This document shows positions 678-19,358 of a stretch of 20,483 bases of DNA, piece after piece; the first letter of the stretch is position 1, and the number at the start of each line of letters is the position of its first letter. The stretch comes from a virus. Under the pieces are notes generated by a model. It did no database searches. It was not told the DNA's origin and saw nothing but the letters and a program-made list of their open reading frames with translations. Location: UHGV virus genome UHGV-0048975, one strand, 5' to 3'. Made by a program: the position numbers and the translations under genes.

Positions 678-1754
678 TCAGTGGTGGTTATTACGGGGTA
701 ATGCCAACCGCTGCCGCCACTTTGTCGCCACTTTGTCGCCACTTGGCAGCGTTGCCAGAGGATTGAAACGGAGCGCCGTTTCCAGATGATCCGGTGCCAG
801 ATGTGCGTAACGCATAGTCATTTTTATATCGTGGTGTCCGAGAATTTTTTGTAAGGCCAGAATGTTTCCACCCGACATCATGAAGTGCGCCGCAAACGTA
901 TGGCGCAGAACGTGTGTGAGTTGACCGCGAGGGAGCACGATAGACGTTTTTTCCATCACGGATAAAAATTGAAAATAGCAGTCTGTGAAGAAATTGAACC
1001 CATCAAGCGCCATGATCTCTTCGTAAAGCTCTTTACTGATAGGGATGCTTCTGTTTTTCTTCCCCTTCGTTCTGACAAAGGTAATTCGGTATTTGGTCAC
1101 CTGTGAGCGGGTAAGATTTACGGCTTCACGCCAGCGTGCGCCTGTGCTTAAGCATATCTTAACTACCAGTGCCAGAATTGGGTCCTGACGTTTGCAATCA
1201 GCCAGCAATTCAACAATCTGCTCATGGGTAAGCCATGCCATCTCTTTTTCTGCGATGGTGAATTTTCGCATGTTCTCCAGTGGGTTCGGATACGACCATT
1301 CGCCCAGACGGGATAGTTCGCTAAAAACACTACTTAGATAGCTTTGCTCCAGGTTAATGGTGACCGGGCTTGCTCCTTTCTTCCATTTCTCGCTGAAGTA
1401 GATCTCGCCTGTCAGGCGTTTATCTCGATAGTGGGCAAACATTTTAGAGGTGAGATCGGTTGCAAGAGGATTGCCCAGAGCGTCAACCATCAACAGCAAT
1501 TTGTCATAGACATGCTGCCCAGCTGTCAGAGATTTACCATGTAGTTTGAACCATAGCTCAACCACGTCTTTCAGTGTTCGACGATCCACTGATTCACCCA
1601 GCCAGGGCTTTGCTTCGGTTTCTTCCATCGTGTGGCGCTCAAAAGCCAGTGCTTCGCCTTTGGTGACGAATTGTTTACGCACACGACGCCCACTTCGTCC
1701 GGCGGGGTAACATTCGCAAAGCCATTTCCCAGTGGTGAGTTTTCGTACTGCCAT
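678..1754 (-). CDS. int: Tyrosine integrase (P2/186 Int family)
   Basis: Begins MAVRKLTTGKWLCECYPAGRSGRRVRKQFVTKGEA, the typical P2-family Int N-terminus; C-terminal HxxR...RYAHL catalytic region. Start placed at the ATG at 1754; the 410-aa track ORF has an implausible N-terminal extension. Confidence 0.9.
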   Translation of the reverse strand: MAVRKLTTGKWLCECYPAGRSGRRVRKQFVTKGEALAFERHTMEETEAKPWLGESVDRRTLKDVVELWFKLHGKSLTAGQHVYDKLLLMVDALGNPLATDLTSKMFAHYRDKRLTGEIYFSEKWKKGASPVTINLEQSYLSSVFSELSRLGEWSYPNPLENMRKFTIAEKEMAWLTHEQIVELLADCKRQDPILALVVKICLSTGARWREAVNLTRSQVTKYRITFVRTKGKKNRSIPISKELYEEIMALDGFNFFTDCYFQFLSVMEKTSIVLPRGQLTHVLRHTFAAHFMMSGGNILALQKILGHHDIKMTMRYAHLAPDHLETALRFNPLATLPSGDKVATKWRQRLALPRNNHH

Positions 1755-4405: not shown

Positions 4406-4472
4406 CCAATTAATGAAATTCATGGCGTAAACCCGCCGGGCATTCCTTTATCTAAATTCAGGAGAATTGATT

Positions 4473-5787: not shown

Positions 5788-8198
5788 GCCATGCCGATAT
5801 GAACAACTGCTGCGGCTTTAACGAGGCTGCCGCAGCGTTCTCATGGAACAGCCCGAAAAAGGCCATTAACCCTTATCTGGACCCGGCGGAAGTTGCGCCG
5901 GTTTCTGCGCTTTCAAACCTGATCGCTCTGTACGCTGCCGATAACGAACAGGAACACCTGCGCCGCGAGGCACTGAGTGATCAGGTCTGGGAGCGTTATT
6001 TCTTTAATGAATCCCGTGATCCTGTCCAGCGCGAAATGGAGCAGGATAAGCTCATTAGTCGGGCAAAGCTGGCGCATGAGCAGCAGCGTTTTAATCCAGA
6101 TATGGTCATTCTGGCGGACGTCAATGCCCAGCCTTCCCATATCAGCAAGCCGCTGATGCAACGTATTGAATACTTCAGCAGCCTGGGCAGGCCAAAGGCT
6201 TATTCCCGCTATTTGCGTGAGACGATTAAGCCATGTTTGGAGCGACTGGAGCATGTACGCGACAGCCAGCTATCTGCATCTTTTCGTTTTATGGCAAGCC
6301 ATGTAGGGCTGGACGGCCTGCTGATTCTGCCTGAAATGAGTCAGGATCAGGTGAAACGCCTGTCTACTCTTGTCGCTGCGCATATGAGCATGTGTCTTGA
6401 TGCCGCTTGTGGTGATTTGTACGCCACCGATGATGTTAAGCCAGAAGAAATCCGCAAGACATGGGAAAAGGTGGCAGCAGAAACCCTGCGACTGGATGTT
6501 ATCCCGCCTGCGTTTGAGCAACTTCGTCGGAAAAGAAACCGCCGTAAACCCGTGCCCTATGAACTCATTCCGGGTTCGCTGGCGCGTATGTTGTGCGCCG
6601 ATTGGTGGTACCGGAAATTATGGAAGATGCGTTGCGAATGGCGGGAAGAGCAGTTGCGTGCTGTTTGCCTGGTCAGCAAAAAAGCATCTCCCTATGTCAG
6701 CTATGAAGCCGTGATGCATAAACGTGAGCAGCGCCGTAAGTCGCTGGAGTTTTTCCGTTCTCATGAACTGGTGAACGAAGACGGCGACACGCTGGACATG
6801 GAGGATGTGGTAAACGCCAGCAGCAGCAACCCGGCGCATCGCCGCAATGAGATGATGGCCTGTGTTAAAGGTCTGGAGCTTATCGCAGAAATGCGCAGTG
6901 ACTGTGCCGTTTTCTACACTATCACCTGTCCGTCGCGTTTCCATTCCACGCTCAATAACGGCAGACCAAACCCGACCTGGACAAACGCGACGGTAAGACA
7001 AAGCAGCGATTATCTGGTCGGCATGTTTGCTGCATTTCGTAAGGCTATGCACAAAGCCGGGTTGCGCTGGTATGGCGTGCGGGTGGCTGAACCGCATCAT
7101 GACGGCACAGTTCACTGGCACCTGTTGTGTTTCATGCGCAAAAAAGACCGCCGCGCCATTACTGCATTGTTGCGTAAGTTTGCCATCCGTGAAGACCGCG
7201 AGGAGCTGGGCAATAACACGGGGCCACGCTTTAAGTCTGAGCTGATAAACCCGCGCAAAGGTACGCCAACAAGCTACATCGCGAAATACATCAGTAAGAA
7301 CATTGACGGGCGTGGTCTGGCTGGCGAGATCAGCAAGGAAACGGGTAAATCCCTGCGTGATAACGCTGAATACGTTAATGCCTGGGCGTCTCTGCATCGT
7401 GTTCAGCAATTCCGCTTCTTTGGTATTCCGGGGCGTCAGGCTTACCGTGAACTTCGCTTGCTGGCTGGTCAGGCGGCAAGGCAACAGGGTGACAAAAAAG
7501 CAGGTGCGCCGGTACTGGATAACCCGCGTCTTGATGCCATTCTGGCTGCTGCTGATGCTGGTTGTTTTGCCACCTACATCATGAAGCAGGGCGGCGTACT
7601 GGTTCCCCGTAAATATCACCTCATCAGAACCGCTTATGAAATCAACGAAGAGCCGACCGCCTATGGCGATCACGGCATTCGTATTTATGGCATCTGGTCA
7701 CCCATTGCAGAGGGCAAGATCTGCACTCATGCAGTGAAGTGGAAAATGGTTCGTAAAGCCGTTGACGTTCAGGAGGCGGCAGCCGACCAGGGCGCTTGCG
7801 CCCCTTGGACTCGTGGCAATAACTGTCCCCTTGCTGAAAATTTGAACCAACAGGATAAAGATAAATCAGCTGATGGGGACACCAGAACGGACATTACCCG
7901 CATGGATGACAAGGAATTGCACGATTACCTGCACAGTATGAGCAAAAAAGAGCGCCGGGAACTGGCAGCAAGGTTACGCCTAGTTAAGCTGAAACGGCGT
8001 AAAGACTACAAACAGCGAATTACAGATCATCAGCGACAGCAGCTCGTCTATGAGCTGAAGTCCAGAGGATTTGATGGCAGCGAGAAAGAGGTCGATTTAC
8101 TCCTACGTGGTGGCAGTATTCCGTCAGGAGCAGGCCTGCGTATCTTCTATCGGAACCAGCGTTTGCAGGAAGATGATAAGTGGCGGAACCTGTATTAA
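5784..8198 (+). CDS. P2 gpA-like rolling-circle replication initiator
   Basis: 804 aa; HUH-type motif [10 protein letters not shown] and downstream YIAKYISK tyrosine motif; position after dam as in P2-like early operons; start overlaps dam stop (ATGA). Confidence 0.85.
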
Positions 8199-8289
8199 TT
8201 ACGCAGGTTAACAATTCGTGCTCTTAATAATACCAGGCATATCAGGCTGATGAACGTAAAAAACGTTTTACATCAGTAATATTATTATA

Positions 8290-8309
8290 TACTGTAAATA
8301 CAAACAGTG
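8290..8309. promoter_or_regulatory. LexA box (SOS operator) TACTGTAAATACAAACAGTG
   Basis: CTGT-N8-ACAG core at 8292-8307, 16/20 match to the LexA consensus TACTGTATATATATACAGTA; lies about 40 bp upstream of the 8350 ATG and overlaps the likely -10 region. Confidence 0.7.
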
Positions 8310-8349
8310 GTTATGTATACAGTGTTGCTTTGGTGTCATAGGAGGAAAG

Positions 8350-8538
8350 ATGCAGGACTATTTTTTGGAGTCTTTGAAGCTCCAGCGCATTGATTTTTTT
8401 CTTAAGCTTGTAGCGGCTAGTGAGTGTAGTGATGAAGAGAAGGGGCTGGCTCTGCAGTGGGTTTCTGAACTGACAGATGAACTCATGGCAAAAATCAGAA
8501 CCCACGAATACAACCGCTCAATGGATGTCATCAGCTGA
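8350..8538 (+). CDS. Small SOS-controlled protein (62 aa); candidate Tum-like antirepressor N-terminal part
   Basis: AGGAGG RBS, downstream of the LexA box, at the position of the 186 SOS operon (tum); function by position only. Confidence 0.5.
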   Translation: MQDYFLESLKLQRIDFFLKLVAASECSDEEKGLALQWVSELTDELMAKIRTHEYNRSMDVIS

Positions 8539-8548
8539 GGTGGCTTTT

Positions 8549-8782
8549 ATGCGCATTGAAATAATGATCGATAAAGAGCAGAAGATTAGCCAGTCTACCC
8601 TGGACGCCCTTGAATCCGAGCTTTACCGTAATTTGCGCCCTCTGTATCCCAAAACAGCAATTCGTATCCGTAAGGGCAGCGCCAATGGCGTTGAGCTGAG
8701 CGGGTTAAAACTGGATGAAGACAAAAAGCGAGTGATGGAAATAATGCAGCAGGTCTGGGAGGACGATAGCTGGCTGCATTAA
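8549..8782 (+). CDS. DinI-family protein
   Basis: MRIEIMIDKEQKISQSTLDALESELYRNLRPLYP...VMEIMQQVWEDDSWLH resembles DinI (MRIEVTIAK...ETWESADDWF); GAGGTGG RBS; second gene of the LexA-controlled pair. Confidence 0.8.
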   Translation: MRIEIMIDKEQKISQSTLDALESELYRNLRPLYPKTAIRIRKGSANGVELSGLKLDEDKKRVMEIMQQVWEDDSWLH

Positions 8783-8790
8783 GAAACATT

Positions 8791-8821
8791 GTAGGCGTCA
8801 GAACTTGATTCTGACGCCTAC
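8791..8821. terminator. Perfect 11-bp stem hairpin (GTAGGCGTCAG / CTGACGCCTAC) between convergent operons
   Basis: Seen directly; the T-rich run is better on the minus-strand side, so it probably terminates the minus-strand three-gene operon and possibly acts bidirectionally. Confidence 0.5.
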
Positions 8822-8877
8822 GAGGTTGAACAACGAGTAAGGCGAGGCGTTAGGTGAAGTAACTCCTTATAAGCCAT

Positions 8878-9561
8878 CTATGATTGAAGGGTGACTTTTT
8901 TTAACGTATCAAAAACGATTTTCGTAAACTCATTCTCATTTCTAACATCAATATAAGCAAGGCCGCTATTGGTGATCTTGAGCTTACCGGAATATTCTAA
9001 TGAATTAACAGAGCAAACAAGCCTGTCAATTCTTATTTTTTTACCCTCTAATTCTTCTTTATAATACTTCCTAAGATCATTGCTGCCAATTATTTGCATT
9101 TTAGCTGTGGCGTAATCAGAAACTCTAACCCTTGAAATATCAAGTTGTGTTAAATTGATATTTACACTTGAAGATATTTCATTAAGCCAGTCTATAGGGT
9201 TTATGTCAATTTCTTCCAAACTAACACCTAAGCCAAGATTTTTTACCAAAGCCTGCGAAAAAGGCTTTAAAGTTCTGGGTGGGTTAGTAATCTGCATTAC
9301 AGGAAGAGAGTCTAAAGCCACGCTAAAATTTGTGGTGCGATATTCGATTCTTTCAACGGTAGTTTCGCTTCCGTCAAAGCTTAATATTTTATCATGATAA
9401 ACAATACGCTCGACAAAGCGACCATTTGCAAAATCATGGCGTATTTTATCAAAAATGAACCCTTTCCCTTTATCCTCTGTAAAAGAATCAAGAGAAAGAC
9501 GTCTAACGGCTGTTTCAAACTCAAGCCGTATGTTTAACTTAAGCCATTTAACCTTTTTCAT
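8878..9561 (-). CDS. Hypothetical protein, third gene of three-gene cargo operon (227 aa)
   Basis: ATG at 9561 lies inside the 3' end of the upstream gene (14-nt overlap); AT-rich; no recognisable motif. Confidence 0.75.
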   Translation of the reverse strand: MKKVKWLKLNIRLEFETAVRRLSLDSFTEDKGKGFIFDKIRHDFANGRFVERIVYHDKILSFDGSETTVERIEYRTTNFSVALDSLPVMQITNPPRTLKPFSQALVKNLGLGVSLEEIDINPIDWLNEISSSVNINLTQLDISRVRVSDYATAKMQIIGSNDLRKYYKEELEGKKIRIDRLVCSVNSLEYSGKLKITNSGLAYIDVRNENEFTKIVFDTLKKVTLQS

Positions 9562-10627
9562 CTTCGTTCACCTCTGATCCTATTATTATATTATAGGCAT
9601 TTTCAGCGGCGGACTCAATTAATTCACTAATATGTTTTTTCTCTTGTGCCGTTGCCGCGCGAATGGTTACATTGAAACCGTCTTCTTTTTGATTGTTTAT
9701 ACCTTTAATTTGATAGGCAAAGTCACAGCATTTTTCTGAGTCTTTGAAAAATGCTTCGACGTTGATTCTGTCTCCAATTCCACTTGTCGGCTTTGAAGAC
9801 CATGCAATACGCCCGATATAATAACCTTTCTCATGTAGTTGAGAAAATATAGCTGAACTATTTACCCCTTCACCATTAAGGACGGCTTTCTTAACAAATC
9901 CGGTATCAATAGTTTCTTCCTTGTCTTCATCCTCACTAGCATCAGTACTGCGATTTAATTCGACTTTTGTTACGTCATCAGTCTCATAACCGCGTAGACC
10001 ATTCATTAATTCCTGAAAAAACTGACTTCGCAATGTAGGATCAGTTATTGCTAGTAATGATATTTCGAAGCGCTCGATAGGTTCGGACTTGATTTTAGAT
10101 AGCTCGTTTTGCAAGCTCTCAATAACTTTTTTTGCCTCGGGGTTTTGAGGCATACGTACTTCAACTTTGTCAGCTCCAGGGCGAAGTTCTATTATAACAT
10201 TCCGCTTGTCGATCTGACGTAATGCAGTTTTAGACAGGTCTATTTCTTCATATTTGTATTCTACTGTAAGCGAGCCATCTTTTTTAGCTACAATATTCAG
10301 GCTTTGACCTTTACTAGGGGAGCATGTTTTTTTTAGTGCTTCAGCAGCACTTTTTAATTCGGCCTGATTTGTTGAGGTTTGGAAGCTCACACTAGTAGTG
10401 CTTTCCCTTGGGTCATATGTTTTGACCAGTTTTTTTATGTGTTCTAATTCATTAAATCCGTGAGGAAGTTTGGATATTTCCTCGATTAGTATTTCCTTGT
10501 CGAGTTCTGGTGATAAAAACACACCTCGATTCAACAATAATTCATGCAACTTTGCAGCGGTTATCCTTTTATGATGTAATGCATCATAAATATTTTTATC
10601 AGTTGCGAAATATAGTTTTTTAGCCAT
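9548..10627 (-). CDS. Hypothetical protein, second gene of three-gene cargo operon (359 aa)
   Basis: Start overlaps the upstream stop (TAATG); acidic internal stretch; no Walker A or other known motif seen. Confidence 0.8.
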   Translation of the reverse strand: MAKKLYFATDKNIYDALHHKRITAAKLHELLLNRGVFLSPELDKEILIEEISKLPHGFNELEHIKKLVKTYDPRESTTSVSFQTSTNQAELKSAAEALKKTCSPSKGQSLNIVAKKDGSLTVEYKYEEIDLSKTALRQIDKRNVIIELRPGADKVEVRMPQNPEAKKVIESLQNELSKIKSEPIERFEISLLAITDPTLRSQFFQELMNGLRGYETDDVTKVELNRSTDASEDEDKEETIDTGFVKKAVLNGEGVNSSAIFSQLHEKGYYIGRIAWSSKPTSGIGDRINVEAFFKDSEKCCDFAYQIKGINNQKEDGFNVTIRAATAQEKKHISELIESAAENAYNIIIGSEVNEDEKG

Positions 10628-11628
10628 TATCGTTGCTCCATGCCGATTTGTTCAAGATTATATTCAACAACAATTTTGTCTGTCTTGTCGAAGTCAATTT
10701 TAAGAAAAAGTCTTTCATCCTCGCCTAAGAGCCAGTCTGTGCTGTATTTCTTTTTCGCTCTTTCAAAATGATGAATGGCATTTTCATTTGGGTGAATGTG
10801 ACAATGGCGTAATACGATTGGTTTACCTTCGGTTAATATCTGATAAGTTGATAACATATCAAAGAAGTAAACGAATTCGTCTACTGAATCCCCCGGTTGA
10901 TTGTAATAAACAACATATCCCTCAGGGTTTTTATCCCTGAGCCAACTGAAAGCCTCATGCTTTATTATAATGTATGGTGATGTTAATAATTCAATTGTTG
11001 CAGGTGTTGTCTGATTAATAGGGTGCTTTATTCTTGTTAGGGAAAGATCTGGATAATAATATGTGAACTTATCAGGTTGAGGAAGTTTGCCTGAACCAAT
11101 TAACTTAGTTATGTCAGAAGATATGTTTATCAAATCTGATATTTTATAAGGGTCAAGCAAATGTAGTTTGATGTTTGGAGGGCAATTTATAGATGAGTGA
11201 TCTAATTTTTTTGTAATATTCTCATAGAAGTCTTTATCATATAAATTATCATGGTTATATAAGAATAATAACCCTCTTACGTTATAACCTAAAGAATCAT
11301 CATGAACATATTTCAATCGCCATTCTTCACTGACATTTGCACACTCGGTAGCTAAAGCAAGCGATGTTAAAGCTCCCTCGACTATTTTTTTCCCAATAGT
11401 ACCTTCTGCATAGCTTTTGAGGTCTGTGTTGAGATAGACCATTTCCTCCTCATATGGATCTATGTAGAAAAATACAACATCGCTTGGATGTGTTTTCTTG
11501 GAATGAGCCTCTTGGCAACAATCCCAATTCATGTCCGCTCTAGCGGCACGATCCCATTTGAACACTGAGAAAATATCATCAGAAATCTTACCCGCGACTC
11601 GTTGTATAGCCGAAGTCTCTCCACCCAT
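10627..11628 (-). CDS. Hypothetical protein, first gene of three-gene cargo operon (333 aa); weak PD-(D/E)xK-like signature
   Basis: GGAG RBS 9 nt upstream of the ATG; possible nuclease-like pattern FFYIDP...MVYLNTDLK (tentative); AT-rich. Confidence 0.8.
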   Translation of the reverse strand: MGGETSAIQRVAGKISDDIFSVFKWDRAARADMNWDCCQEAHSKKTHPSDVVFFYIDPYEEEMVYLNTDLKSYAEGTIGKKIVEGALTSLALATECANVSEEWRLKYVHDDSLGYNVRGLLFLYNHDNLYDKDFYENITKKLDHSSINCPPNIKLHLLDPYKISDLINISSDITKLIGSGKLPQPDKFTYYYPDLSLTRIKHPINQTTPATIELLTSPYIIIKHEAFSWLRDKNPEGYVVYYNQPGDSVDEFVYFFDMLSTYQILTEGKPIVLRHCHIHPNENAIHHFERAKKKYSTDWLLGEDERLFLKIDFDKTDKIVVEYNLEQIGMEQR

Positions 11629-11698
11629 TTCAATCTCGCTCCTTTACAATTGCTGTGGCAATCTGCCTGAAAATCCATCTGACTTGATGAGTAATCTA

Positions 11699-11710
11699 AC
11701 CATATGGTTC
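11699..11710. promoter_or_regulatory. Perfect 12-bp palindrome AACCATATGGTT in the control region upstream of the three-gene operon
   Basis: Seen directly, about 70 bp upstream of the operon start; possible operator. Confidence 0.3.
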
Positions 11711-11778
11711 GTATGCGTTTGTTGCATGACTATAGCGCATGAAAATGAATGATCGCAAAAGGATCGTTTTTGCTCAGT

Positions 11779-11801
11779 CCCGCCAGTTCTGGCGGGCTTT
11801 T
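11779..11801 (+). terminator. Intrinsic terminator-like hairpin CCCGCCA-GTTC-TGGCGGG followed by CTTTT, with no upstream plus-strand gene
   Basis: 7-bp GC stem, tetraloop and T-run on the plus strand only; no plus-strand CDS upstream, so it may end a small non-coding transcript or insulate the downstream module. Confidence 0.45.
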
Positions 11802-11933
11802 ACTTATGTCATGCAGGTGCATGAAAACCACTACACAAAGCGGGCAGGCGTGGCGGGGATACGAGCGCGCGCTGTGCGTGGTTGTAAAAGGAAATTGTTT
11901 TCGGTATAACCACTTCCATTAGAAGGAGAATTT

Positions 11934-12179
11934 ATGAAAATTTTTGCAATAGTCATTACATGTATGCTGGCATCGATTGCAGGATTATGGCTTTATATGG
12001 ATCCTGGTTTTGATTCTATTGTTGCATTTTTGGCTGCAGTTAGCGCTTTAGCTGGATTACTTATCACTACAAAAAATAAATATAATTCTATGAGCCAATC
12101 AGTTGGTGATAATTCAACTGCTGTCCAGGCTAGAGGTGATATTAAAATTGATTGTATAAATACAGGTGATAAAAAATAA
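11934..12179 (+). CDS. Small membrane protein (81 aa, two predicted TM helices)
   Basis: AAGGAG RBS; hydrophobic segments IFAIVITCMLASIAGLWLYM and IVAFLAAVSALAGLLITT; C-terminal tail shares a motif with the N-terminus of the next protein. Confidence 0.7.
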   Translation: MKIFAIVITCMLASIAGLWLYMDPGFDSIVAFLAAVSALAGLLITTKNKYNSMSQSVGDNSTAVQARGDIKIDCINTGDKK

Positions 12180-12188
12180 GGAGGATAT

Positions 12189-13046
12189 ATGTTTAGTGAT
12201 AAGCAAAAGCAACAAATAGGTAATAATTCGTATGCAATTCAAGCTGGAAATAATGTAAATGTTTCAGGGATGTCGTTTTCCGAGGTTAGAGAACTATTCA
12301 ACATTCTCTTCGAAAATCAGTTTCCAAAATTGAAAGATGTTGCTTATGCTGCAGCTCAAGAGAATGCAAAAGATTTTGAAGAGCGTGTCGTTTCGGATTT
12401 AACAAAAAACGTTGATAGATTGATTATTGATAAATTTTGCGATCCGGACGTTCAGGCTACATTGACTGAGGCATTAAAGTCATCAGCCAGGAAGGGAAAG
12501 AAAGCTAATATGGATGTGCTTTCTCAGTTGTTAGTTGAACGAGTCTCCAATAACAATGACGATTTTAGAGATATAGTTTTAACGGAGGCAGTTACCGTCG
12601 TTCCCAAGTTAACACAGCAACAAATATCACTTATAACGATAGTTTTTCTTCTCAAGAATGTTGAGATCAAAGACCCTGTTAATGGTGTTCGATTGGATTT
12701 GTTGGAGCACAATTTTAGAAACTTTGAATCAATGTATACTAATGGGTTTAATTTGTCTCAAGCCCAGATATATCACATTCAATATGCAGGGGCTTGTTCA
12801 TGGAATACTTTTTTAGGGATGGATGTTGAAGACTATTTTATGAGTAAATATCCGACTGATATAAAAGATAAGAGTGCATATATTTCAAATCTTAAGTTAG
12901 TTGCCCCTCATGTGTCTGCATTTTTAGAAAAATTTTCAAAGAGCAACTATCAAGGAATTGAATTAACAAGTGTAGGGCAAGCAATTGCTCTGGCTGTTTT
13001 TTCAAGATACGTAGGAAGATTGGATTATAATATTTGGTTAAAGTAG
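12189..13046 (+). CDS. Hypothetical cargo protein (285 aa), partner of the small membrane protein
   Basis: AAGGAGGA RBS immediately after the upstream stop; AT-rich; N-terminus KQQIGNNSYAIQAGNNVNV parallels SQSVGDNSTAVQARGDIKI in the upstream protein. Confidence 0.8.
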   Translation: MFSDKQKQQIGNNSYAIQAGNNVNVSGMSFSEVRELFNILFENQFPKLKDVAYAAAQENAKDFEERVVSDLTKNVDRLIIDKFCDPDVQATLTEALKSSARKGKKANMDVLSQLLVERVSNNNDDFRDIVLTEAVTVVPKLTQQQISLITIVFLLKNVEIKDPVNGVRLDLLEHNFRNFESMYTNGFNLSQAQIYHIQYAGACSWNTFLGMDVEDYFMSKYPTDIKDKSAYISNLKLVAPHVSAFLEKFSKSNYQGIELTSVGQAIALAVFSRYVGRLDYNIWLK

Positions 13047-13075
13047 GGCATTATTTGCCCTACTTTATTATAATT
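13043..13075. terminator. Bidirectional terminator hairpin GTAGGGCA-TTATT-TGCCCTAC followed by a T-rich run
   Basis: 8-bp stem overlapping the stop codon of the 285-aa gene, then TTTATTATAATT; lies between convergent genes. Confidence 0.6.
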
Positions 13076-13630
13076 CATATGGTTGGAAAGAAATTATTTC
13101 ATCACTCAACCATTCATTAATTTCTTTAATTCGCTTTTGCAGCGGTATCAATTCGTTACGGACAAACACCTTACTCGCCTTTTCCACATCCCCAAATCCC
13201 CCAACATTACTCGGCATAATCCCCATCATCTGCGGCGGAACGCGGTGTGCAGCCATCATGTCGTCTCGGCTCACGTTCTTAATGTTCAGAAACTCATCCT
13301 TTGCCGCTACCTCTGACAGCGGGATTATCTGAATCCCGTCCTTTTTGCCGTTGGGTGAATACATAAACAGGTTGCGGAAGTTGCCCGGTCCTTTAGCGCT
13401 TTTCATGGCCTGGCGGATGTTGTTCACGTCCTCCTGGTTCTGCGCGGCGTCGGTCATATACATGATGAACCCTGCATGACTGCCATTGATGTAGTATTTA
13501 CGCCGGAACAGCGTAGCGGACTCGTTCAGCAAGGCGGACGGAATGGCGGACAGATATTCCGGCAGGCCGTAAATTTCCTGGTTCAGGTCCGGCTCCATCA
13601 GGTGAAAGATACTGCCTTTAGTGAACTCGT
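13068..13630 (-). pseudogene. Portal protein gene remnant (3' half only; P2 gpQ-like)
   Basis: C-terminal portal-like sequence (...GIMPSNVGGFGDVEKASKVFVRNELIPLQKRIKEINEWL...); only ~180-190 codons where P2-type portals are about 340; the 5' boundary is approximate. Confidence 0.65.
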
Positions 13631-13639
13631 AGGGCTGCG

Positions 13640-13934
13640 TGGTTACACCCTGAACGTGGTGATTGAGGATTTCAGCGGCGACCAGAATCTGCTGATGGCC
13701 CCGGTTTTGCTGTGGCTGCGGGATAACCAGCCCGATGCCATCAATAACCCGGCGTTACGGGAAAAACTATTTACCTTTGAGGTGGATATTCTGCGCAACG
13801 ATGTCTGTGATATCAGCCTTAACCTGCAACTGACGGAACGTGTGCTGGTCAGCACTGACGGCAGTGTGTCGAGCGTTGAAGCGGTAGCAGAACCCGATGA
13901 ACCTGAAGAAATGTGGACGGTGAAACGTGGCTGA
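13640..13934 (+). pseudogene. Tail completion protein R gene remnant (3' part; P2 gpR-like)
   Basis: YTLNVVIEDFSGDQNLLMAPVLLWLRDNQPD...LNLQLTERVLVS resembles P2 gpR; the upstream part of the track ORF is antisense to the portal remnant, so the N-terminus is missing. Boundary approximate. Confidence 0.6.
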
Positions 13935-14373
13935 ACTGCAGAAGGTGGACGACTGGCTTAGTGCCTTACTGGCGAATCTGGAACCAGTCGCAAGAAGCCG
14001 CATGATGCGCCAGCTGGCGCAGGAACTGCGCCGGACACAGCAGCAGAATATCAGGATGCAGCGCAATCCAGATGGCAGCAGTTATGAACCGCGCAAGGTC
14101 ACGGCGCGCAGTAAAAAAGGCCGCATCAAACGTCAGATGTTTGCAAAGCTGCGCACCACCAAATACCTGAAAACTGCCGCCAGCGCCGATTCTGCCAGCG
14201 TGCAGTTTGAAGGTAAGGTGCAGCGCATTGCCCGCGTTCACCATTATGGCCTGCGCGATCGCGTCAGCCGCAAAGGACCGGAAGTGCGTTACGCAGAGCG
14301 TCGTTTGTTGGGTCTTAATGGTGAGTCTTACGTTCTAACTCTTGATATATTGAATAGATTCCTTCTGTCTTGA
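13927..14373 (+). CDS. Tail completion / virion morphogenesis protein S (P2 gpS-like)
   Basis: 148 aa, GTG start overlapping the R stop; basic central region typical of the gpS family; the last ~17 codons are AT-rich and overlap the convergent membrane-protein gene. Confidence 0.8.
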   Translation: MAELQKVDDWLSALLANLEPVARSRMMRQLAQELRRTQQQNIRMQRNPDGSSYEPRKVTARSKKGRIKRQMFAKLRTTKYLKTAASADSASVQFEGKVQRIARVHHYGLRDRVSRKGPEVRYAERRLLGLNGESYVLTLDILNRFLLS

Positions 14374-15121
14374 ATTCACCATATGCCCAATGAATTGCAT
14401 TTTTTTGTTCAGTCAGAATATATTTCCTAACTTTTTTAGAATAGTGAATGGTCAGTATAAAACCCAAAGAAATCCATAATAGAATAAATATGGTTGTTGG
14501 GGCAAAGGAATAGATAAAGAATTTGTCTTTAACGAAATTCTTGACTTCTTCATCAATGTAAGCATTCCCTTCATCAGTGGTTAGTAGTTTACAAAGAATT
14601 TCTTTATGTTCGATAGTTAATGATTTGTACTTCTCTGTACTGGCAGAGGATGACTCTTCGCAATCATCCTTTGATATTTCCCAATCAGGAGTGGTTAATA
14701 TTGTAGCTGCAGTCGCCAGTTTTTTTGACATATAAAATGATTCACCGGATTTTATCCAATAAAGCAATGTGCTATTTGGTGGGGTTCTAATGGCTTGGAT
14801 GAAAACTGGACCAAAAATATAAATTGCACACAAAAAAAGAAGTGAAAAGAGAACCGTGATTGATTTTTCAGCCCATGTGATAGTAGGCAGCCTTTTTAAT
14901 GATATTCGTATAAGAAAAAAATTCAATATAAACGCAGGTATTCCTGATTTTTTCAAAATTACATCATGAGATTTTCTATATTTGAATAGTGCTCTTATAA
15001 CTATCGTCACCAAAGTTATAACAGCTCCAATAATGGAAATCCATGCGGCAAGTGCCGCTGCCGGGGTGTTTAAAAATTCAGCATTAAATATATTAGAACT
15101 TATTGGATTCATAACACTCAT
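14315..15121 (-). CDS. AT-rich multi-pass membrane protein (268 aa) inserted between tail genes S and V
   Basis: GGTGG RBS 4 nt upstream of the ATG; several hydrophobic helices (AALAAWISIIGAVITLVTIVI, ITVLFSLLFLCAIYIFGPVFI, IFILLWISLGFILTI); opposite strand to the tail genes. Confidence 0.75.
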   Translation of the reverse strand: MSVMNPISSNIFNAEFLNTPAAALAAWISIIGAVITLVTIVIRALFKYRKSHDVILKKSGIPAFILNFFLIRISLKRLPTITWAEKSITVLFSLLFLCAIYIFGPVFIQAIRTPPNSTLLYWIKSGESFYMSKKLATAATILTTPDWEISKDDCEESSSASTEKYKSLTIEHKEILCKLLTTDEGNAYIDEEVKNFVKDKFFIYSFAPTTIFILLWISLGFILTIHYSKKVRKYILTEQKNAIHWAYGEFKTEGIYSIYQELERKTHH

Positions 15122-15224
15122 TTATCCACCTATTGGTTGTTTTTTATCCTTTTATCAATTTGTACCATCGATACCACAATTTGCAAGAAGTTATAAACAA
15201 GTTTTCAGCTGTCATCATATATCT

Positions 15225-15803
15225 ATGAACGCACAACTAACCGAAATCATGCGCCTTATCACCAATCTGATCCGCATAGGTGTAGTCACCGAAGTGGACC
15301 GGGAAAACTGGCTTTGTCGGGTGAAAACGGGCGACCTTGAAACCAACTGGATTAACTGGCTGACGCTGCGCGCGGGTAATGCCCGCACATGGTGGCGACC
15401 ATCGGAAGGTGAGCAGGTGGTGCTGCTGAGTCTGGGCGGCAATCTGGAAACCGCCTTTGCGTTACCCGCCATCTATTCGAATCAGTTCGCGCCACCTTCG
15501 ACGTCGGCGGACGCCTGCGTGACAGAACATCCTGACGGCGGCTGGTTTGAATACGAACCCGCCACCGGGCGCTGGTATGTCAGGGGCATCAAATCAATGG
15601 TCATTGAGGCCGCTGACAATATCACCCTGAAAACCAGTGAGTTTATGCTGGAGGCTGACCGCACGCGTATTAACAGCGAAGTGGTGATCAATGGTGGCGT
15701 TACCCAGGGCGGTGGAGCGATGAGCTCTAACGGGATTGTGGTTGATGCGCATCAGCATACTGGCGTCCTGAAAGGCGGCGACACAACCGGAGGTCCGGTA
15801 TGA
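15225..15803 (+). CDS. Baseplate assembly protein V (P2 gpV-like)
   Basis: MNAQLTEIMRLITNLIRIGVVTEVD... typical of gpV; the track ORF from 14982 is an antisense over-extension. Confidence 0.85.
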   Translation: MNAQLTEIMRLITNLIRIGVVTEVDRENWLCRVKTGDLETNWINWLTLRAGNARTWWRPSEGEQVVLLSLGGNLETAFALPAIYSNQFAPPSTSADACVTEHPDGGWFEYEPATGRWYVRGIKSMVIEAADNITLKTSEFMLEADRTRINSEVVINGGVTQGGGAMSSNGIVVDAHQHTGVLKGGDTTGGPV

Positions 15804-16159
15804 CGCTTTATAGCGGGATGAACAATACCAGCGGCAAAGCCATTACTGATATTGACCATCTGCGCCAGTCGGTGCGGGACATTCTGCTGACACCGCAGGG
15901 TAGCCGTATTGCCCGTCGGGAATATGGTTCTCTGCTGTCGGCACTGATAGACCAGCCACAAAATCCGGCATTACGCCTGCAGGTCATGTCGGCAGTGTAT
16001 GTGGCGCTGAGTCGCTGGGAGCCACGGCTGACGCTGGATTCCATCACCATCAACAGCGATTTTGACGGTTCAATGGTGGTGGAGCTGACCGGGCGGCGTA
16101 ATAACGGTGTGCCTGTTTCCCTTTCCGTATCAACAGGAGCAGAGAATGGCAGTGATTGA
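15800..16159 (+). CDS. Baseplate wedge protein W (P2 gpW / GPW-gp25 family)
   Basis: 119 aa; ATGA overlap with the V stop; sequence DILLTPQGSRIARREYGSLL typical of the gpW/gp25 family. Confidence 0.85.
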   Translation: MTLYSGMNNTSGKAITDIDHLRQSVRDILLTPQGSRIARREYGSLLSALIDQPQNPALRLQVMSAVYVALSRWEPRLTLDSITINSDFDGSMVVELTGRRNNGVPVSLSVSTGAENGSD

Positions 16160-17054
16160 CCTTTCGCAGTTGCCTGCGCCGCAGATTGTGGATGTGCCGG
16201 ACTTTGAGACGCTGCTTGCCGAACGCAAGGCAGAATTTGTGGCGCTTCATCCGAAAGATGAGCAGGAAGCAGTGATCCGCACGCTGGAACTGGAATCTGA
16301 ACCCGTCACCAAATTGTTGCAGGAGAACGCTTACCGTGAGTTGCTTCTGCGCCAGCGCATTAACGAAGCCGCGCAGGCGGTGATGGTGGCTTATGCGATG
16401 GGCGGCGATCTTGACCAGCTCGCTGCCAACTACAACGTGAAACGCCTGACGGTGACGCCTGCTGATGATGACGCTGTGCCGCCCGTTGCAGCTGTGATGG
16501 AAAGCGATGAAGCGTTACGCCTGCGTGTGCCTGCAGCCTTTGAAGGGCTTTCAGTTGCGGGGCCAACTGCAGCTTATGAATTTCATGCCCGAAGCGCCGA
16601 CGGTCGGGTGGCGGATGCCAGTGCAACCAGTCCGGCACCTGCAGAGGTGGTGCTGACTGTCCTTAGCCGCGAAGGCGATGGAACAGCAGAAAAAGACTTG
16701 CTGGATGTGGTGGAGAAAGCCCTGAACAGTGAGAACGTCCGCCCGGTGGCTGACCGTCTGACGGTTCGCAGCGCAGAAATCATCCCGTACCGCGTGGAAG
16801 CCACCATTTTTCTCTATCCGGGACCGGAAGCAGAGCCGGTAATGGCAGCGGCAAAAGCCAGTCTGCAGAAGTACATCGCCAGTCAGACGCGTCTTGGCCG
16901 GGATATTCGCCGTAGCGCCATCTTTGCCGCCCTGCATGTTGAGGGTGTGCAGCGTGTGGAGCTGGCTTCGCCGCTGGCGGATGTGGTCCTGAACAAAACA
17001 CAGGCGGCATCATGTACGCAGTGGAGCGTAACCAACGGAGGAACGGATGAATAG
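16146..17054 (+). CDS. Baseplate assembly protein J (P2 gpJ-like)
   Basis: ATG at 16146 after AGGAG, overlapping the W 3' end; about 300 aa, in the conserved V-W-J-I order. Confidence 0.85.
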   Translation: MAVIDLSQLPAPQIVDVPDFETLLAERKAEFVALHPKDEQEAVIRTLELESEPVTKLLQENAYRELLLRQRINEAAQAVMVAYAMGGDLDQLAANYNVKRLTVTPADDDAVPPVAAVMESDEALRLRVPAAFEGLSVAGPTAAYEFHARSADGRVADASATSPAPAEVVLTVLSREGDGTAEKDLLDVVEKALNSENVRPVADRLTVRSAEIIPYRVEATIFLYPGPEAEPVMAAAKASLQKYIASQTRLGRDIRRSAIFAALHVEGVQRVELASPLADVVLNKTQAASCTQWSVTNGGTDE

Positions 17055-17652
17055 TCTGCTGCCACCGGGTTCAACTTCACTGGAGCGCCGACTGGCGCAA
17101 ACCTGCAGCGGGATTTCTGATTTGCAGGTGCCGCTGCGTGACTTGTGGAATCCAACGACCTGTCCGGTCAGTTTCCTGCCTTATCTCGCCTGGGCGTTCT
17201 CTGTGGATCGCTGGGACGAGGACTGGACGGAAAGTGTCAAACGCCAGGTGGTGAAGGATGCTTTTTATATTCATCAGCATAAAGGAACCACCAGTGCCGT
17301 GCGGCGGGTGGTGGAGCCGTTCGGCTTTCTGATCCGCATTATTGAGTGGTGGCAGACCGGAGAAACACCAGGCACGTTTCGCCTGGATATCGGCGTGCAG
17401 GATCAGGGCATCACTGAAGATACCTATCTGGAACTTGAGCGACTGATAAGCGATGCCAAACCATGTAGCCGTCACATGATCGGCATGTCCATCAATCTGC
17501 AGACCAGCGGCCCGCATTGGGTGGGAGCCGCCAGTTATCTTGGCGAAGAAATCACGATCTATCCGTATATCAACGAAACAATTATTTCCGGCGGCACCGC
17601 GCATGAAGGCGGGGCGGTCCATGTTATTGACACAATGAGAGTGAATCCATGA
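17047..17652 (+). CDS. Tail protein I (P2 gpI-like)
   Basis: Start overlaps the J stop; conserved position between J and the tail-fibre gene. Confidence 0.85.
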   Translation: MNSLLPPGSTSLERRLAQTCSGISDLQVPLRDLWNPTTCPVSFLPYLAWAFSVDRWDEDWTESVKRQVVKDAFYIHQHKGTTSAVRRVVEPFGFLIRIIEWWQTGETPGTFRLDIGVQDQGITEDTYLELERLISDAKPCSRHMIGMSINLQTSGPHWVGAASYLGEEITIYPYINETIISGGTAHEGGAVHVIDTMRVNP

Positions 17653-19163
17653 GCACAAAATTTTATACCCTGCTGACGGATATTGGCGCGGCGAAACTTG
17701 CCAGCGCCGCCGCGCTCGGTGTGCCTTTAAAAATTACCCATATGGCGGTCGGCGATGGCGGCGGAACATTACCAACGCCGGACGCAAAGCAGACAGCACT
17801 GGTAAATGAGAAACGCCGGGCTGCGCTGAATATGCTCTATATCGACCCGCAGAACAGCAGCCAGATTATTGCTGAACAGGTGATCCCTGAAAACGAGGGC
17901 GGTTGGTGGATACGTGAAGTGGGCTTGTTTGATGAGTCCGGGGCATTGATTGCCGTGGGTAACTGCCCGGAAAGCTATAAGCCGCAACTGGCTGAAGGCA
18001 GTGGGCGTACCCAGACCGTGCGCATGGTGCTGATTACCAGCAGTACGGGCAATATCATCCTGAAAATCGACCCTGCTGTAGTGCTGGCAACCCGCAAGTA
18101 TGTGGATGACAAGGCACTGGAGCTGAAGGTGTACGTGGATGACCTGATAGCAAAACATCTTGCCGCACTGGACCCGCATTCACAGTATGCACCCAAAGAA
18201 AGTCCGACATTTACCGGAACCCCCAAAGCGCCAACGCCAGCGGCGGGGAATAATACCACTCAGCTTGCGACCACCGCATTTGTTCAGGCGGCACTGACGG
18301 CCCTGATTAATGGTGCGCCAGCCACGCTGGACACGCTGAAAGAAATAGCCGCAGCCATTAACAATGACCCGAAATTCAGTACCACCATTAACAATGCGCT
18401 GGCACTGAAAGCGCCGCTGTCGAATCCGGCACTCACCGGAACGCCAACAGCCCCCACGGCGGCGCAGTCGGTCAACAATACACAGATTGCCACTACGGCT
18501 TTTGTGAAATCGGCGATTGCGGCAATGGTGGGTTCTGCACCTGCGGCACTGGATACACTGAACGAACTGGCGGCGGCACTGGGGAATGATCCGAACTTTG
18601 CCACGACAATGCTTAATGCGCTGGCAGGTAAACAACCGCTGGACAATACGCTGACTAATTTGAGTGGAAAGGATGTAGCTGGTCTTCTCACATACCTTGG
18701 TTTGGGAGAAGGTTCGGCATTACCCGTTGGTGTGCCTGTCCCGTGGCCTTCCGCCACTCCGCCAACAGGCTGGCTAAAATGCAATGGTGCGGCTTTTTCT
18801 GCTGAAGAATACCCGGAACTGGCAAAGGTTTATCCGACAAATAAATTGCCTGATTTACGCGGTGAATTTATTCGTGGCTGGGATGACGGACGTGGAGTGG
18901 ATGCCGGGCGACAATTATTATCTTCACAGGGGGATGCAATAAGAAATATTGAGGGATTCGCAGATGGCGGGATCGGTATGTCTTTTGATGCAATCAGAGG
19001 GGCTTTTTACGATGCAGGAACACGATCAGCGAGAATGCCGAATAACACAACTACTATAGACAAAACCGATGACCTTGGATTCGACGCCTCTCGTGTCGTG
19101 CCAACAGCTAATGAAAACCGTCCACGTAACATCGCCTTTAATTATATTGTGAGGGCTGCATAA
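17649..19163 (+). CDS. Tail fibre protein (P2 gpH-like) with C-terminal receptor-binding module
   Basis: 504 aa; conserved N-terminus MSTKFYTLLTDIGAAKLA...; repeated ...TPxAPT...TQLATTAFV motifs; the C-terminal module (from about 18783) is repeated downstream. Confidence 0.9.
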   Translation: MSTKFYTLLTDIGAAKLASAAALGVPLKITHMAVGDGGGTLPTPDAKQTALVNEKRRAALNMLYIDPQNSSQIIAEQVIPENEGGWWIREVGLFDESGALIAVGNCPESYKPQLAEGSGRTQTVRMVLITSSTGNIILKIDPAVVLATRKYVDDKALELKVYVDDLIAKHLAALDPHSQYAPKESPTFTGTPKAPTPAAGNNTTQLATTAFVQAALTALINGAPATLDTLKEIAAAINNDPKFSTTINNALALKAPLSNPALTGTPTAPTAAQSVNNTQIATTAFVKSAIAAMVGSAPAALDTLNELAAALGNDPNFATTMLNALAGKQPLDNTLTNLSGKDVAGLLTYLGLGEGSALPVGVPVPWPSATPPTGWLKCNGAAFSAEEYPELAKVYPTNKLPDLRGEFIRGWDDGRGVDAGRQLLSSQGDAIRNIEGFADGGIGMSFDAIRGAFYDAGTRSARMPNNTTTIDKTDDLGFDASRVVPTANENRPRNIAFNYIVRAA

Positions 19164-19358
19164 TGAAACCTGTTTTTGATGAAAATGGGCTGGCTACAGT
19201 ACCGGGTAATATGCGTTGTTTTTATTATGAGGCAGTTACGTATGAATATACTGGCTGGTCTGATGAATATATTAATACTGGCGTAAGTATGCCCGCCTGT
19301 TCCACTGGTATTGACCCGGGCGAATACATTCCGGGAAGAGTGGCAGTATTTAACGGGG
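19163..19358 (+). CDS. Tail fibre assembly (chaperone) gene copy 1, 5' part only, interrupted by the N run
   Basis: First 64-65 codons nearly identical to the complete copy at 19840; TAATG overlap with the tail-fibre stop. Confidence 0.5.

What the first reader, a model, noticed from the sequence alone, without database searches (positions are those of the whole stretch)
13068..13934. Deletion junction fusing the portal 3' half to the tail-completion R 3' part: prophage lacks terminase, capsid and lysis genes
A portal remnant (minus strand) abuts an R remnant (plus strand) at roughly 13600-13660. In P2 order the portal 5' half, terminase, scaffold, capsid, head-completion and the lysis cassette lie between these points, so all are missing. 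The prophage cannot make heads or lyse the cell, yet keeps an apparently intact switch, replication, SOS module, cargo and tail genes. The cargo may be what is being maintained.
Basis: partly seen in the sequence, partly recalled or inferred. Interest (0 to 1): 0.5.

Follow-up and report, generated by a model that had tools for sequence, protein, structure and literature searches.

The report
Deletion scar in defective P2-like prophage
A single 7.1-kb deletion in an E. coli P2-like prophage removed all head, DNA-packaging and lysis genes and left a real, inherited scar, which makes this an ordinary defective prophage that still carries a known anti-phage defence system.

Summary
The minus-strand portal remnant (codons 153-343; 13068-13645) abuts the plus-strand tail-completion R remnant (codons 48-143; 13642-13934). 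Against near-identical undeleted prophages in E. coli Z1322HEC0001 and HSP425, exactly 7,066 bp are missing. The loss covers the portal 5' part, both terminase subunits, scaffold, capsid, head completion, X, holin, lysozyme, LysB/LysC, the R 5' part, and the region that holds the divergent P_P/P_O late promoters in P2. The joint lies in a 4-bp perfect microhomology, GTTA (7 of 8 bases as GTTA[G/C]ACC).

It is not an assembly artefact. The two junction-specific ORFs occur in at least 48 contigs from isolate and metagenome assemblies, and the 12 aligned are 99.9-100% identical.

The "intact tail genes" part fails. R is truncated, and sister contigs with the same junction show two more deletions that remove the invertase, most of the sheath gene, the tube gene, E/E' and half of the tape measure.

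The cargo is the three-gene "3HP" system of Rousset et al. 2022 (anti-P1), plus a Vpar_1526-family gene pair.

The retained genes, including useless orphaned tail genes, are identical to those of the undeleted relative. Conservation therefore gives no evidence that the cargo is under selection.

Defective P2-like prophages with conserved defence genes are already described. Interest is low.

The parts
13068..13645 (-). Portal (gpQ-like) gene remnant: codons 153-343 plus the stop codon. The N-terminal 152 codons are deleted.
   Evidence: Pfam and NCBIfam portal hits cover only the C-terminal part of each profile. The remnant is 100% identical to the portal 3' half of the H3, HSP425, Z1322HEC0001 and E47 prophages. 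Translation.
13642..13649 (.). Deletion joint. GTTACACC in the window; the parental portal side reads GTTAGACC and the parental R side GTTACACC. Perfect microhomology is GTTA (13642-13645).
   Evidence: Three-way alignment of the window with both parental breakpoints in L015. The H3 left breakpoint has the same sequence. Alignments overlap by 8 bp.
13642..13934 (+). Tail-completion gene R remnant: codons 48-143. The first 47 codons and everything upstream are deleted.
   Evidence: Pfam P2_Phage_GpR hit covers profile positions 47-133 only. 100% identity to R of the H3, HSP425 and Z1322HEC0001 prophages from this point on. Translation.
13476..13934 (+). 152-aa chimeric ORF: 55 codons read antisense through the portal remnant, fused in frame to R codons 48-143. 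Most likely a by-product of the joint, not a gene.
   Evidence: Gene callers call either this ORF plus a 131-aa portal piece, or a 176-aa portal piece plus a 110-aa R piece. It served as a junction-specific probe.
13927..14373 (+). Tail-completion gene S. Intact, but it has lost the region that holds its promoter in P2 (in P2, R and S are transcribed from P_O).
   Evidence: Pfam Phage_tail_S, full length. Protein identical to S of the undeleted relative. The P2 record lists the O operon as O, N, M, L, X, Y, K, lysA, lysB, R, S.
8878..11628 (-). Cargo 1: three-gene '3HP' anti-phage system. Hp3 is 8878-9561, Hp2 is 9548-10627, Hp1 is 10627-11628.
   Evidence: PADLOC models Hp3, Hp2 and Hp1 match full length at E 2e-157, 2.7e-248 and 1.1e-239. 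Pfam PDDEXK_GAPS4 and GAPS4b_N appear on the same proteins in sister contigs. Rousset et al. 2022 describe a three-gene P2-hotspot system with no predicted domains that protects against P1 (PMC9122126).
11847..11865 (+). Retained cos-like site, GGCGTGGCGGGGATACGAG. It lies inside a 150-bp non-coding block (11723-11873) conserved among P2-like prophages.
   Evidence: 36 of 45 identity to the P2 cos region, reaching 13 bases into the 19-nt cohesive end. The conserved block is found in 1,252 E. coli genomes and 87 phage records.
11934..13046 (+). Cargo 2: an 81-aa ORF (11934-12179) and a 285-aa LPO_1073/Vpar_1526 family protein (12189-13046), lying between cos and the portal stop codon. Function unknown.
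   Evidence: NCBIfam NF045477, E 3e-72. Pfam Vpar_1526 on the same gene in sister contigs. No PADLOC hit.
14315..15121 (-). DUF6216 membrane-protein gene inserted between S and V. It is the positional counterpart of P2 orf30.
   Evidence: Pfam DUF6216, E 7e-12. Absent from the S-V gap of E47 and CP019275. Only marginal similarity to P2 Orf30, E 0.042.
15161..15803 (+). TGT-N12-ACA element (15161-15178), matching the motif I recall from memory as the P2 late-promoter activator site, followed by intact baseplate gene V (15225-15803). W, J, I and H follow and are intact within the window.
   Evidence: Motif found. The P2 record places the P_V activator site 42-69 bp upstream of V. V, W, J and I proteins are identical to the undeleted relative.
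8292..8782 (+). LexA-box-like CTGTAAATACAAACAG (8292-8307) ahead of a 62-aa ORF (8350-8538) and a DinI-like gene (8549-8782). This is the 'SOS module'.
   Evidence: Annotated 'DinI family protein' in relatives.
678..1754 (-). Integrase gene with an 11-bp tandem duplication (CGCCACTTTGT twice; the extra copy is 715-725). The duplication replaces the last 7 residues with a 15-residue tail, downstream of the RYAHL catalytic motif.

Best explanation
This is the scar of one recent intramolecular deletion in a P2/186-like (Fels-2-type) prophage integrated between rcdA and ybjL of E. coli. Illegitimate recombination between two directly oriented copies of GTTA[G/C]ACC, 7,066 bp apart, joined portal codon 153 (minus strand) to R codon 48 (plus strand). 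The loss covers portal codons 1-152, both terminase subunits (P, M), scaffold (O), capsid (N), head completion (L), X, holin, lysozyme, LysB, LysC and R codons 1-47. It also covers the P-O intergenic region, which holds the P_P and P_O late promoters in P2. The element therefore cannot build or fill heads, cannot complete tails and cannot lyse the cell. It is a defective prophage inherited vertically in one E. coli lineage. That lineage has since lost more late genes: the invertase, and sheath through tape measure. In one sub-branch V through T is gone as well. The retained parts are int, CI, cII, dam, A, the LexA-box/DinI module, cos, ogr, the 3HP defence system, the Vpar_1526 pair and the DUF6216 gene. 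Shown here: the breakpoints, the gene content lost, the occurrence in independent assemblies, and the identity of the cargo. Inferred: the microhomology-mediated mechanism, the loss of the late promoters (by P2 analogy), and any selective benefit from disarming an SOS-inducible killer or keeping immunity and defence.
For: The window differs from the undeleted Z1322HEC0001 prophage by only one synonymous substitution, the int duplication and the joint over about 13 kb on the left. It is 100% identical over 5,055 bp on the right. Against HSP425 exactly 7,066 bp are missing, and microhomology is visible at both parental sites. Annotated relatives list the lost genes in P2 order. P2's own record gives the operon and promoter layout. 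The junction-specific ORFs occur in at least 48 contigs read, across 124 index blocks, and the 12 aligned contigs are 99.9-100% identical. Further deletions in the same lineage were mapped against intact ET350 and CP019275. Prophages on the same backbone decay differently elsewhere: H3 has lost M-lysC and T-D, and HSP425 has a portal Q97stop and a V-D deletion. Intact versions exist with other cargo (ET350, KN13-4). E47 carries the same cargo in a prophage with intact late genes, annotated as far as the fetched region runs, into gene D.
Against: No reads were available for the source assembly, which is a draft with a 100-N scaffold gap at 19359-19458. The junction in this particular genome therefore rests on agreement with other assemblies. 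The window ends in gene G, so the extra downstream deletions are seen only in sister contigs and not in this genome itself. A 4-bp microhomology is short and only suggests the mechanism. Nothing here measures expression, excision or defence activity.
Confidence: 0.92

Rival explanations
1. Assembly artefact: two contigs, or two different P2-like prophages, were wrongly joined in a draft assembly, and the real genome has an intact prophage.
For: The window is from a scaffolded draft. It has a 100-N gap at 19359-19458, flanked by a duplicated and slightly divergent H 3' end and G. Repeat-induced misassembly therefore does occur nearby.
Against: The identical junction is present in at least 48 contigs from different runs and assemblers (Logan, ENA isolate and metagenome assemblies, IMG/VR), and the fetched ones are 99.9-100% identical across it. 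From my knowledge of assemblers, a 4-8 bp overlap is far too short for a join. Both flanks are about 100% identical to a single parental prophage.
Confidence: 0.01
2. Rearrangement, not loss: the head and lysis block was moved elsewhere, in the prophage or in the genome, and the element is still complete in trans.
For: The window ends in gene G. The divergent second copy of the H 3' end after the N gap (12 mismatches at 19462-19737) hints that the genome may hold another related tail-fibre gene, possibly a second P2-like prophage.
Against: The window and sister contigs with the same junction together run from rcdA through ogr to ybjL. Between them lie only tail remnants, U, D and ogr, with no head or lysis genes. 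A separate resident P2-like prophage would be a different element, not a relocated block.
Confidence: 0.03
3. Domesticated defence island: the deletion, and the later ones, were favoured because they disarm an SOS-inducible lethal prophage while keeping immunity (CI) and the 3HP, Vpar_1526 and DUF6216 cargo, which are under purifying selection.
For: All eight inactivating events seen across this prophage backbone hit the late region, and the cargo is untouched. The junction lineage is widespread. Rousset et al. 2022 report that a three-gene P2-hotspot system without predicted domains protects against P1 (PMC9122126), and the PADLOC Hp1-3 hits tie this cargo to it. A 2026 survey reports defective P2-like elements whose defence genes stay near-identical to those of intact phages (PMC13586616).
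Against: Useless orphaned genes (S, V, W, J, I) are as perfectly conserved as the cargo, so recency explains the retention just as well. The late region is about 65% of the prophage. Eight of nine events falling there has a binomial probability of about 0.12 (my arithmetic from the coordinates), which is not significant. Deletions that remove CI would be counter-selected whatever the cargo.
Confidence: 0.3

Closest known systems
Bacteriophage P2 / 186 / Fels-2 family (Peduoviridae) prophages of Enterobacteriaceae
   Same: The gene order matches: int-CI-(apl)-cII-...-dam-A-DinI-hotspot-cos-hotspot-Q-P|O-N-M-L-X-lysis-R-S-(orf30 position)-V-W-J-I-H-G-...-ogr. Portal, GpR, S and V Pfam families are present, along with a cos-like site and a TGT-N12-ACA element upstream of V.
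   Different: It lacks 7.07 kb of essential head, packaging and lysis genes and part of R. Sister contigs also lack sheath, tube, E/E' and half of T.
Defective P2-like prophages with conserved defence genes (NAR 2026, PMC13586616); more generally, domesticated defective prophages (Bobay et al. 2014, cited from memory)
   Same: The P2 core genes are incomplete while the hotspot defence genes stay identical to those of intact phages.
   Different: Here the exact parental state, the breakpoint and the microhomology can be read, because near-identical undeleted relatives exist. The replication gene A is intact, whereas that survey found the primase to be the core gene most often pseudogenised.
3HP (DefenseFinder 'Rst_3HP', name from memory; PADLOC Hp1-Hp3) anti-phage system of the P2 cos-proximal hotspot (Rousset et al. 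2022)
   Same: Three co-oriented genes give full-length matches to the Hp1, Hp2 and Hp3 models, and they lie between A/DinI and cos.
   Different: Nothing was detected at sequence level. Activity in this strain is untested.
Defective P2-related prophage of E. coli B (recalled from memory as the source of P2 Hy dis hybrids)
   Same: It is a P2-family remnant in an E. coli chromosome that keeps R-S and tail genes. The BL21 and REL606 R-S region is 99.2% identical to the window's.
   Different: The deletion set is different, and I did not compare the integration sites. No B strain carries this junction.

Membership tests
P2-like (Peduoviridae) prophage | Collinear P2 gene order with hallmark proteins (portal Q, GpR, S, V, W, J, I, H, replication protein A, integrase) | tested here: met
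   Pfam hits. 86-96% DNA identity in collinear blocks to Klebsiella phage KP12 and E. coli CP019275. Annotated relatives.
P2-like (Peduoviridae) prophage | P2-type cos site between the A-side hotspot and Q | tested here: met
   36 of 45 identity to the P2 cos region at 11815-11859, including the first 13 nt of the cohesive end. Whether it is cleaved is not testable here.
P2-like (Peduoviridae) prophage | Complete set of essential morphogenesis and lysis genes (a functional phage) | tested here: not met
   7,066 bp holding P, O, N, M, L, X, holin, lysozyme, lysB and lysC, plus parts of Q and R, are absent. It is therefore a P2-like remnant, not a functional member.
Defective (cryptic) prophage | Integrated phage-derived element flanked by host genes, with essential genes deleted, and inherited vertically | tested here: met
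   rcdA lies on the left and ybjL on the right in sister contigs. The deletions are mapped. The same scar is found in many assemblies.
3HP anti-phage defence system | Three adjacent co-oriented genes matching Hp1, Hp2 and Hp3 | tested here: met
   Full-length PADLOC hits, E 1e-239, 3e-248 and 2e-157.
3HP anti-phage defence system | Confers phage resistance (P1 in the original test) | not testable with these tools
   Known only from PMC9122126.
R-type tailocin (domesticated contractile tail) | Intact sheath, tube, baseplate and tail-completion genes, plus a lysis cassette for release | tested here: not met
   The lysis cassette is deleted and R is truncated. Sheath and tube are deleted in sister contigs.
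P4-like satellite / helper-dependent element | No structural genes of its own, a helper-compatible cos, its own integrase and replication, and helper-manipulating genes (sid, psu, delta, epsilon type) | tested here: inconclusive
   cos, int, A and ogr are retained. No helper-manipulating genes were seen in any annotation. At about 23.7 kb (my estimate) it is about 69% of the intact 34-kb genome. Packaging was not tested.

The most novel reading that the evidence does not exclude
The multiply deleted element (about 23.7 kb) keeps int, the CI switch, the LexA-box/DinI module, replication gene A, ogr and a cos-like site, and it has lost every gene that kills the host. It might therefore still excise and replicate on SOS induction and be packaged by a related co-resident or superinfecting P2-like helper. 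That would make it a newly born, satellite-like mobilisable defence island carrying 3HP.
Probability: 0.05. Interest if true: 0.5.

Novelty: new member of a known kind. Interest (0 to 1): 0.15.

Why it matters
Mostly for annotation. The locus should be labelled a defective P2-like prophage, with pseudogenes for the portal and R. The 152-aa "GpR" ORF that gene callers report is a chimera. The scar is a clean lineage marker. Because near-identical undeleted and differently deleted relatives exist, this backbone at rcdA-ybjL gives a small natural series of prophage decay around a validated defence system. It could be used to ask whether defence cargo outlives its phage. It does not reveal a new mechanism.

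Tried and rejected
(1) An exact search for the 28-nt junction in the GTDB species-representative genomes gave 0 hits. A megablast of 13300-14000 against 5,426 complete E. coli genomes gave no place covering both sides. The junction is therefore absent from those sets. This first suggested rarity or an artefact, until the exact-protein look-ups found it in many Logan and ENA assemblies.

(2) The assembly-artefact reading was rejected on those data.

(3) The tailocin reading was rejected because the lysis genes and the sheath and tube genes are gone.

(4) A search for the exact P2 cos 19-mer with up to 3 mismatches found nothing. The cos homologue appeared only by aligning the whole P2 cos region.

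(5) P2 Orf30 against the DUF6216 protein gave only marginal similarity (E 0.042), so I call it a positional analogue and not a homologue.

(6) PADLOC and NCBIfam gave no defence assignment for the Vpar_1526 pair or for DUF6216.

(7) I tried to use conservation as evidence for selection on the cargo. It is uninformative, because all retained genes are identical to the parent. The late-region bias of inactivating events is not significant (about 0.12).

(8) The att core was only partly defined, as a shared 14-mer AACAAAAAACCCAT at window 603.

Full report
**What the window is.** It is the left two-thirds of a P2/186-like (Fels-2-type) prophage inserted next to the E. coli gene rcdA (20-586). That flank is 99% identical to E. 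coli chromosomes.

The gene order follows; coordinates come from ORFs, annotated relatives and protein identity.
- int: 678-1754, minus strand.
- CI repressor: 2150-2719, minus strand.
- A small apl/cox-like gene, then cII (3124-3642), fil, DUF5347, DUF2732 and TraR.
- dam: 4870-5787. Replication gene A: 5784-8198.
- A LexA-box-like site at 8292-8307, ahead of a 62-aa ORF and a DinI-like gene (8549-8782).
- Three minus-strand cargo genes: 8878-11628.
- A conserved non-coding block: 11723-11873.
- Two plus-strand cargo genes: 11934-13046.
- The finding itself: 13068-13934.
- S (13927-14373), then a DUF6216 gene on the minus strand (14315-15121).
- V (15225-15803), then W, J, I, H and G.

**Checking the observation.**
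- The ORF at 13068-13598 (minus) matches only the C-terminal part of the portal profiles: Pfam Phage_portal positions 136-277 of 321 and NCBIfam portal_PBSX positions 139-316 of 320 at E 4e-70.
- The plus-strand ORF at 13476-13934 matches P2_Phage_GpR only from profile position 47 to the end.
- Portal DNA similarity to complete phages stops at about 13645-13649. R similarity starts at 13642.
- In the intact Klebsiella phage KP12 these two points are 7.4 kb apart. That interval holds the rest of the portal, terminase, scaffold, capsid, small terminase, head completion, X, holin, endolysin, spanins and the start of R.
- So the described remnants are there, at the stated coordinates, with overwhelming statistical support.

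**Base-level mapping.** Near-identical undeleted relatives exist. Inside the prophage, the window differs from the prophage of E. coli Z1322HEC0001 in only a few places. (That record is NZ_CP148585.1, labelled a plasmid but carrying chromosomal genes.)
- Left of the joint (603-13649), the differences are an 11-bp tandem duplication in int, one synonymous substitution at 3582, and one base at the joint.
- Right of the joint (13642-18696), it is 100% identical over 5,055 bp.

Against strain HSP425, window 1-13649 aligns to L015 1-13638, and window 13642-15378 aligns to L015 20697-22433. Exactly 7,066 bp are missing. The parental portal side reads ...GCGTG GTTAGACC GTATTG..., the parental R side reads ...GTACC GTTACACC CTGAAC..., and the window reads ...GCGTG GTTACACC CTGAAC.... 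The crossover therefore lies within the perfect 4-bp repeat GTTA (13642-13645), inside a 7-of-8 match. The two copies are in direct orientation, as a deletion requires.

The portal keeps residues 153-343 of 343, and R keeps residues 48-143 of 143. Lost outright, using L015 annotation, are terminase ATPase, scaffold, major capsid, small terminase, head completion, X, holin, lysozyme, LysB and LysC. In P2 the P-O intergenic region holds the divergent late promoters P_P and P_O, and R and S belong to the O operon. By that analogy the truncated R and the intact S have also lost their promoter.

**Is the junction real?**
- No complete RefSeq E. coli genome (5,426) contains the junction, and neither does the GTDB representative set.
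- The joint creates two junction-specific ORFs, and exact-sequence look-ups find both widely. The 152-aa chimera (55 antisense-portal codons plus R 48-143) is listed in 38 index blocks. The 176-aa portal remnant is listed in 86. Gene callers pick one pairing or the other.
- Twelve fetched contigs, from Logan SRA assemblies and ENA isolate and metagenome assemblies, are 99.9-100% identical to the window across the joint. One IMG/VR contig has it too.
- This excludes an assembly artefact. It shows a single event inherited by a circulating E. coli lineage.

**What lies beyond the window.** The window stops in G. Sister contigs with the same junction continue to ogr and the host gene ybjL (L003, L012, L013). 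No head or lysis genes lie there, so this is loss and not rearrangement. The contigs reveal more damage.
- Relative to H3, about 0.92 kb is gone. It covered part of the inverted tail-fibre segment, the invertase and the first 89 nt of the sheath gene.
- Relative to intact ET350 and CP019275, 3.42 kb is gone. This runs from sheath nt 349 through tube, E/E' and the first 1,590 nt of the tape-measure gene.
- What is left is a 102-aa sheath fragment and a 470-492-aa T fragment.
- One sub-branch (L013) has additionally lost V (3' part) through T.

As a module the tail is dead. A TGT-N12-ACA element sits 47-64 bp upstream of V. That motif is, from memory, the P2 late-promoter activator site, and the position corresponds to the P_V activator site in the P2 record. 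V-G might therefore still be transcribed if Ogr is made. This is an inference.

**Relatives decay in other ways.** The same backbone at rcdA-ybjL occurs in several states.
- Intact with other cargo: ET350 and KN13-4.
- E47 carries the same cargo on a mosaic backbone. Its late genes are annotated intact as far as the fetched region runs (into gene D), and it has an IS insertion between int and CI.
- Same cargo but differently damaged: H3 has deletions M-lysC and T-D. HSP425 has a portal Q97stop and a V-D deletion.
- Only five complete genomes hold this exact cargo arrangement.

**The cargo.**
- The three minus-strand genes match PADLOC models Hp1, Hp2 and Hp3 over their full lengths (E 1e-239, 3e-248 and 2e-157).
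- They lie in the cos-proximal hotspot between A and Q. Rousset et al. 2022 describe a three-gene system from that hotspot, without predicted domains, that protects against P1 (PMC9122126). This is the system that, from memory, DefenseFinder lists as Rst_3HP.
- Newer Pfam families (PDDEXK_GAPS4 and GAPS4b_N) hit Hp1 and Hp2.
- The conserved 150-bp block between the two cargo clusters contains the cos homologue. Positions 11815-11859 are 36 of 45 identical to the P2 cos region, and GGCGTGGCGGGGATACGAG (11847-11865) aligns to the 19-nt cohesive end. So both sides of cos carry cargo.
- The second cluster is an 81-aa ORF plus an LPO_1073/Vpar_1526 family protein (NCBIfam E 3e-72). It has no known role and no PADLOC hit.

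**Mechanism and consequences.**
- Shown: one 7,066-bp deletion at a short direct microhomology, loss of 10 whole genes and parts of two more, and vertical inheritance.
- Inferred from the P2 record or from general knowledge:
  - The deletion arose by RecA-independent illegitimate recombination or replication slippage.
  - It removed the late promoters (by analogy with the P2 record).
  - The element cannot form heads, package DNA, finish tails or lyse.
  - Because CI, A and the LexA-box module remain, losing the lethal late functions would make SOS induction survivable. That is a plausible selective advantage.

**Is the cargo "what is being maintained"?** The idea is reasonable, and a 2026 survey of P2-like elements already reports defective copies whose defence genes stay near-identical to those of intact phages (PMC13586616). 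The present data cannot support it, for two reasons.
- All 23 retained genes compared, including functionless S, V, W, J and I, are protein-identical to the undeleted relative. The only exception is int. Too little time has passed for decay to show.
- Eight of nine inactivating events across this backbone fall in the late region. That region is about 65% of the element, giving a binomial probability of about 0.12 (my arithmetic). This is not significant, and deletions that touch CI would be counter-selected whatever the cargo.

**Comparison with what is known, and verdict.** The locus is a P2-family prophage remnant. It fails the "functional phage" test, it fails the tailocin test, and it has no satellite-specific genes. 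Its cargo is a described defence system. Defective P2-like prophages with conserved defence genes are a described phenomenon. What is specific here is only the exact scar and the convenient series of relatives. Novelty is that of a new instance of a known kind, and interest is low (0.15).

The least conventional reading still open is that the element remains excisable and replicative, bears cos, and could be mobilised by a helper. At about 23.7 kb (my estimate) it is about 69% of the intact genome. I give this reading about 5%.

Noticed in passing
window 19359-19458 and flanks 18783-20033: A run of 100 N is flanked by duplicated sequence. G starts at 19163 and is cut by the gap. After the gap comes a second copy of the H 3' end with 12 mismatches (19462-19737), followed by a complete G (19840-20433). 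Sister contigs have a single H-G. This looks like a scaffolding artefact at a repeat, and the divergent H copy may come from another tail-fibre gene or a second P2-like prophage in the genome.
   Followed up: partly
window 704-725 (int 3' end): An 11-bp tandem duplication (CGCCACTTTGT twice) changes the integrase C-terminus from ...GDKVAAAVGITP* to ...GDKVATKWRQRLALPRNNHH*. It is absent from HSP425 and Z1322HEC0001. It lies after the RYAHL catalytic motif, and its effect on excision is unknown.
   Followed up: partly
window 14315-15121 (-): A DUF6216 membrane-protein gene lies between S and V and overlaps the S 3' end by 59 nt. It has the same position, strand and size as P2 orf30 but only marginal similarity to it (E 0.042). 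It is absent from E47 and CP019275, so the S-V gap is a second variable cargo slot.
   Followed up: partly
window 11723-11873: A 150-bp non-coding block is conserved at 84-92% in 1,252 complete E. coli genomes and 87 phage records. It contains the cos homologue at 11847-11865, and cargo genes lie on both sides of it.
   Followed up: yes
window 11934-13046: An 81-aa ORF plus a 285-aa LPO_1073/Vpar_1526 family protein sit between cos and the portal stop codon. There is no PADLOC hit, so this is a candidate uncharacterised hotspot system.
   Followed up: partly
L019 (NZ_CP148585.1, E. coli Z1322HEC0001 'plasmid pZ1322HEC0001-3'); also NZ_CP148400.1: The 55-kb records labelled as circular plasmids carry chromosomal genes (rimO, dacC, mdfA, rcdA) plus this prophage, and end inside tail-fibre gene H. 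They are probably mis-closed chromosomal contigs rather than plasmids.
   Followed up: no
L005 (Logan SRR015731) 5560-8153: In this old run Hp3 and Hp1 appear split or shortened, and the contig differs from the window only by 4 gaps and no substitutions. This is more likely homopolymer sequencing error than real cargo decay.
   Followed up: no
window 8292-8307 and 8642-8657: There are two exact CTGT-N8-ACAG matches, against 0.23 expected. The first lies 43 bp upstream of the 62-aa ORF and DinI-like pair and is a plausible LexA box. The second lies inside the DinI-like gene.
   Followed up: no
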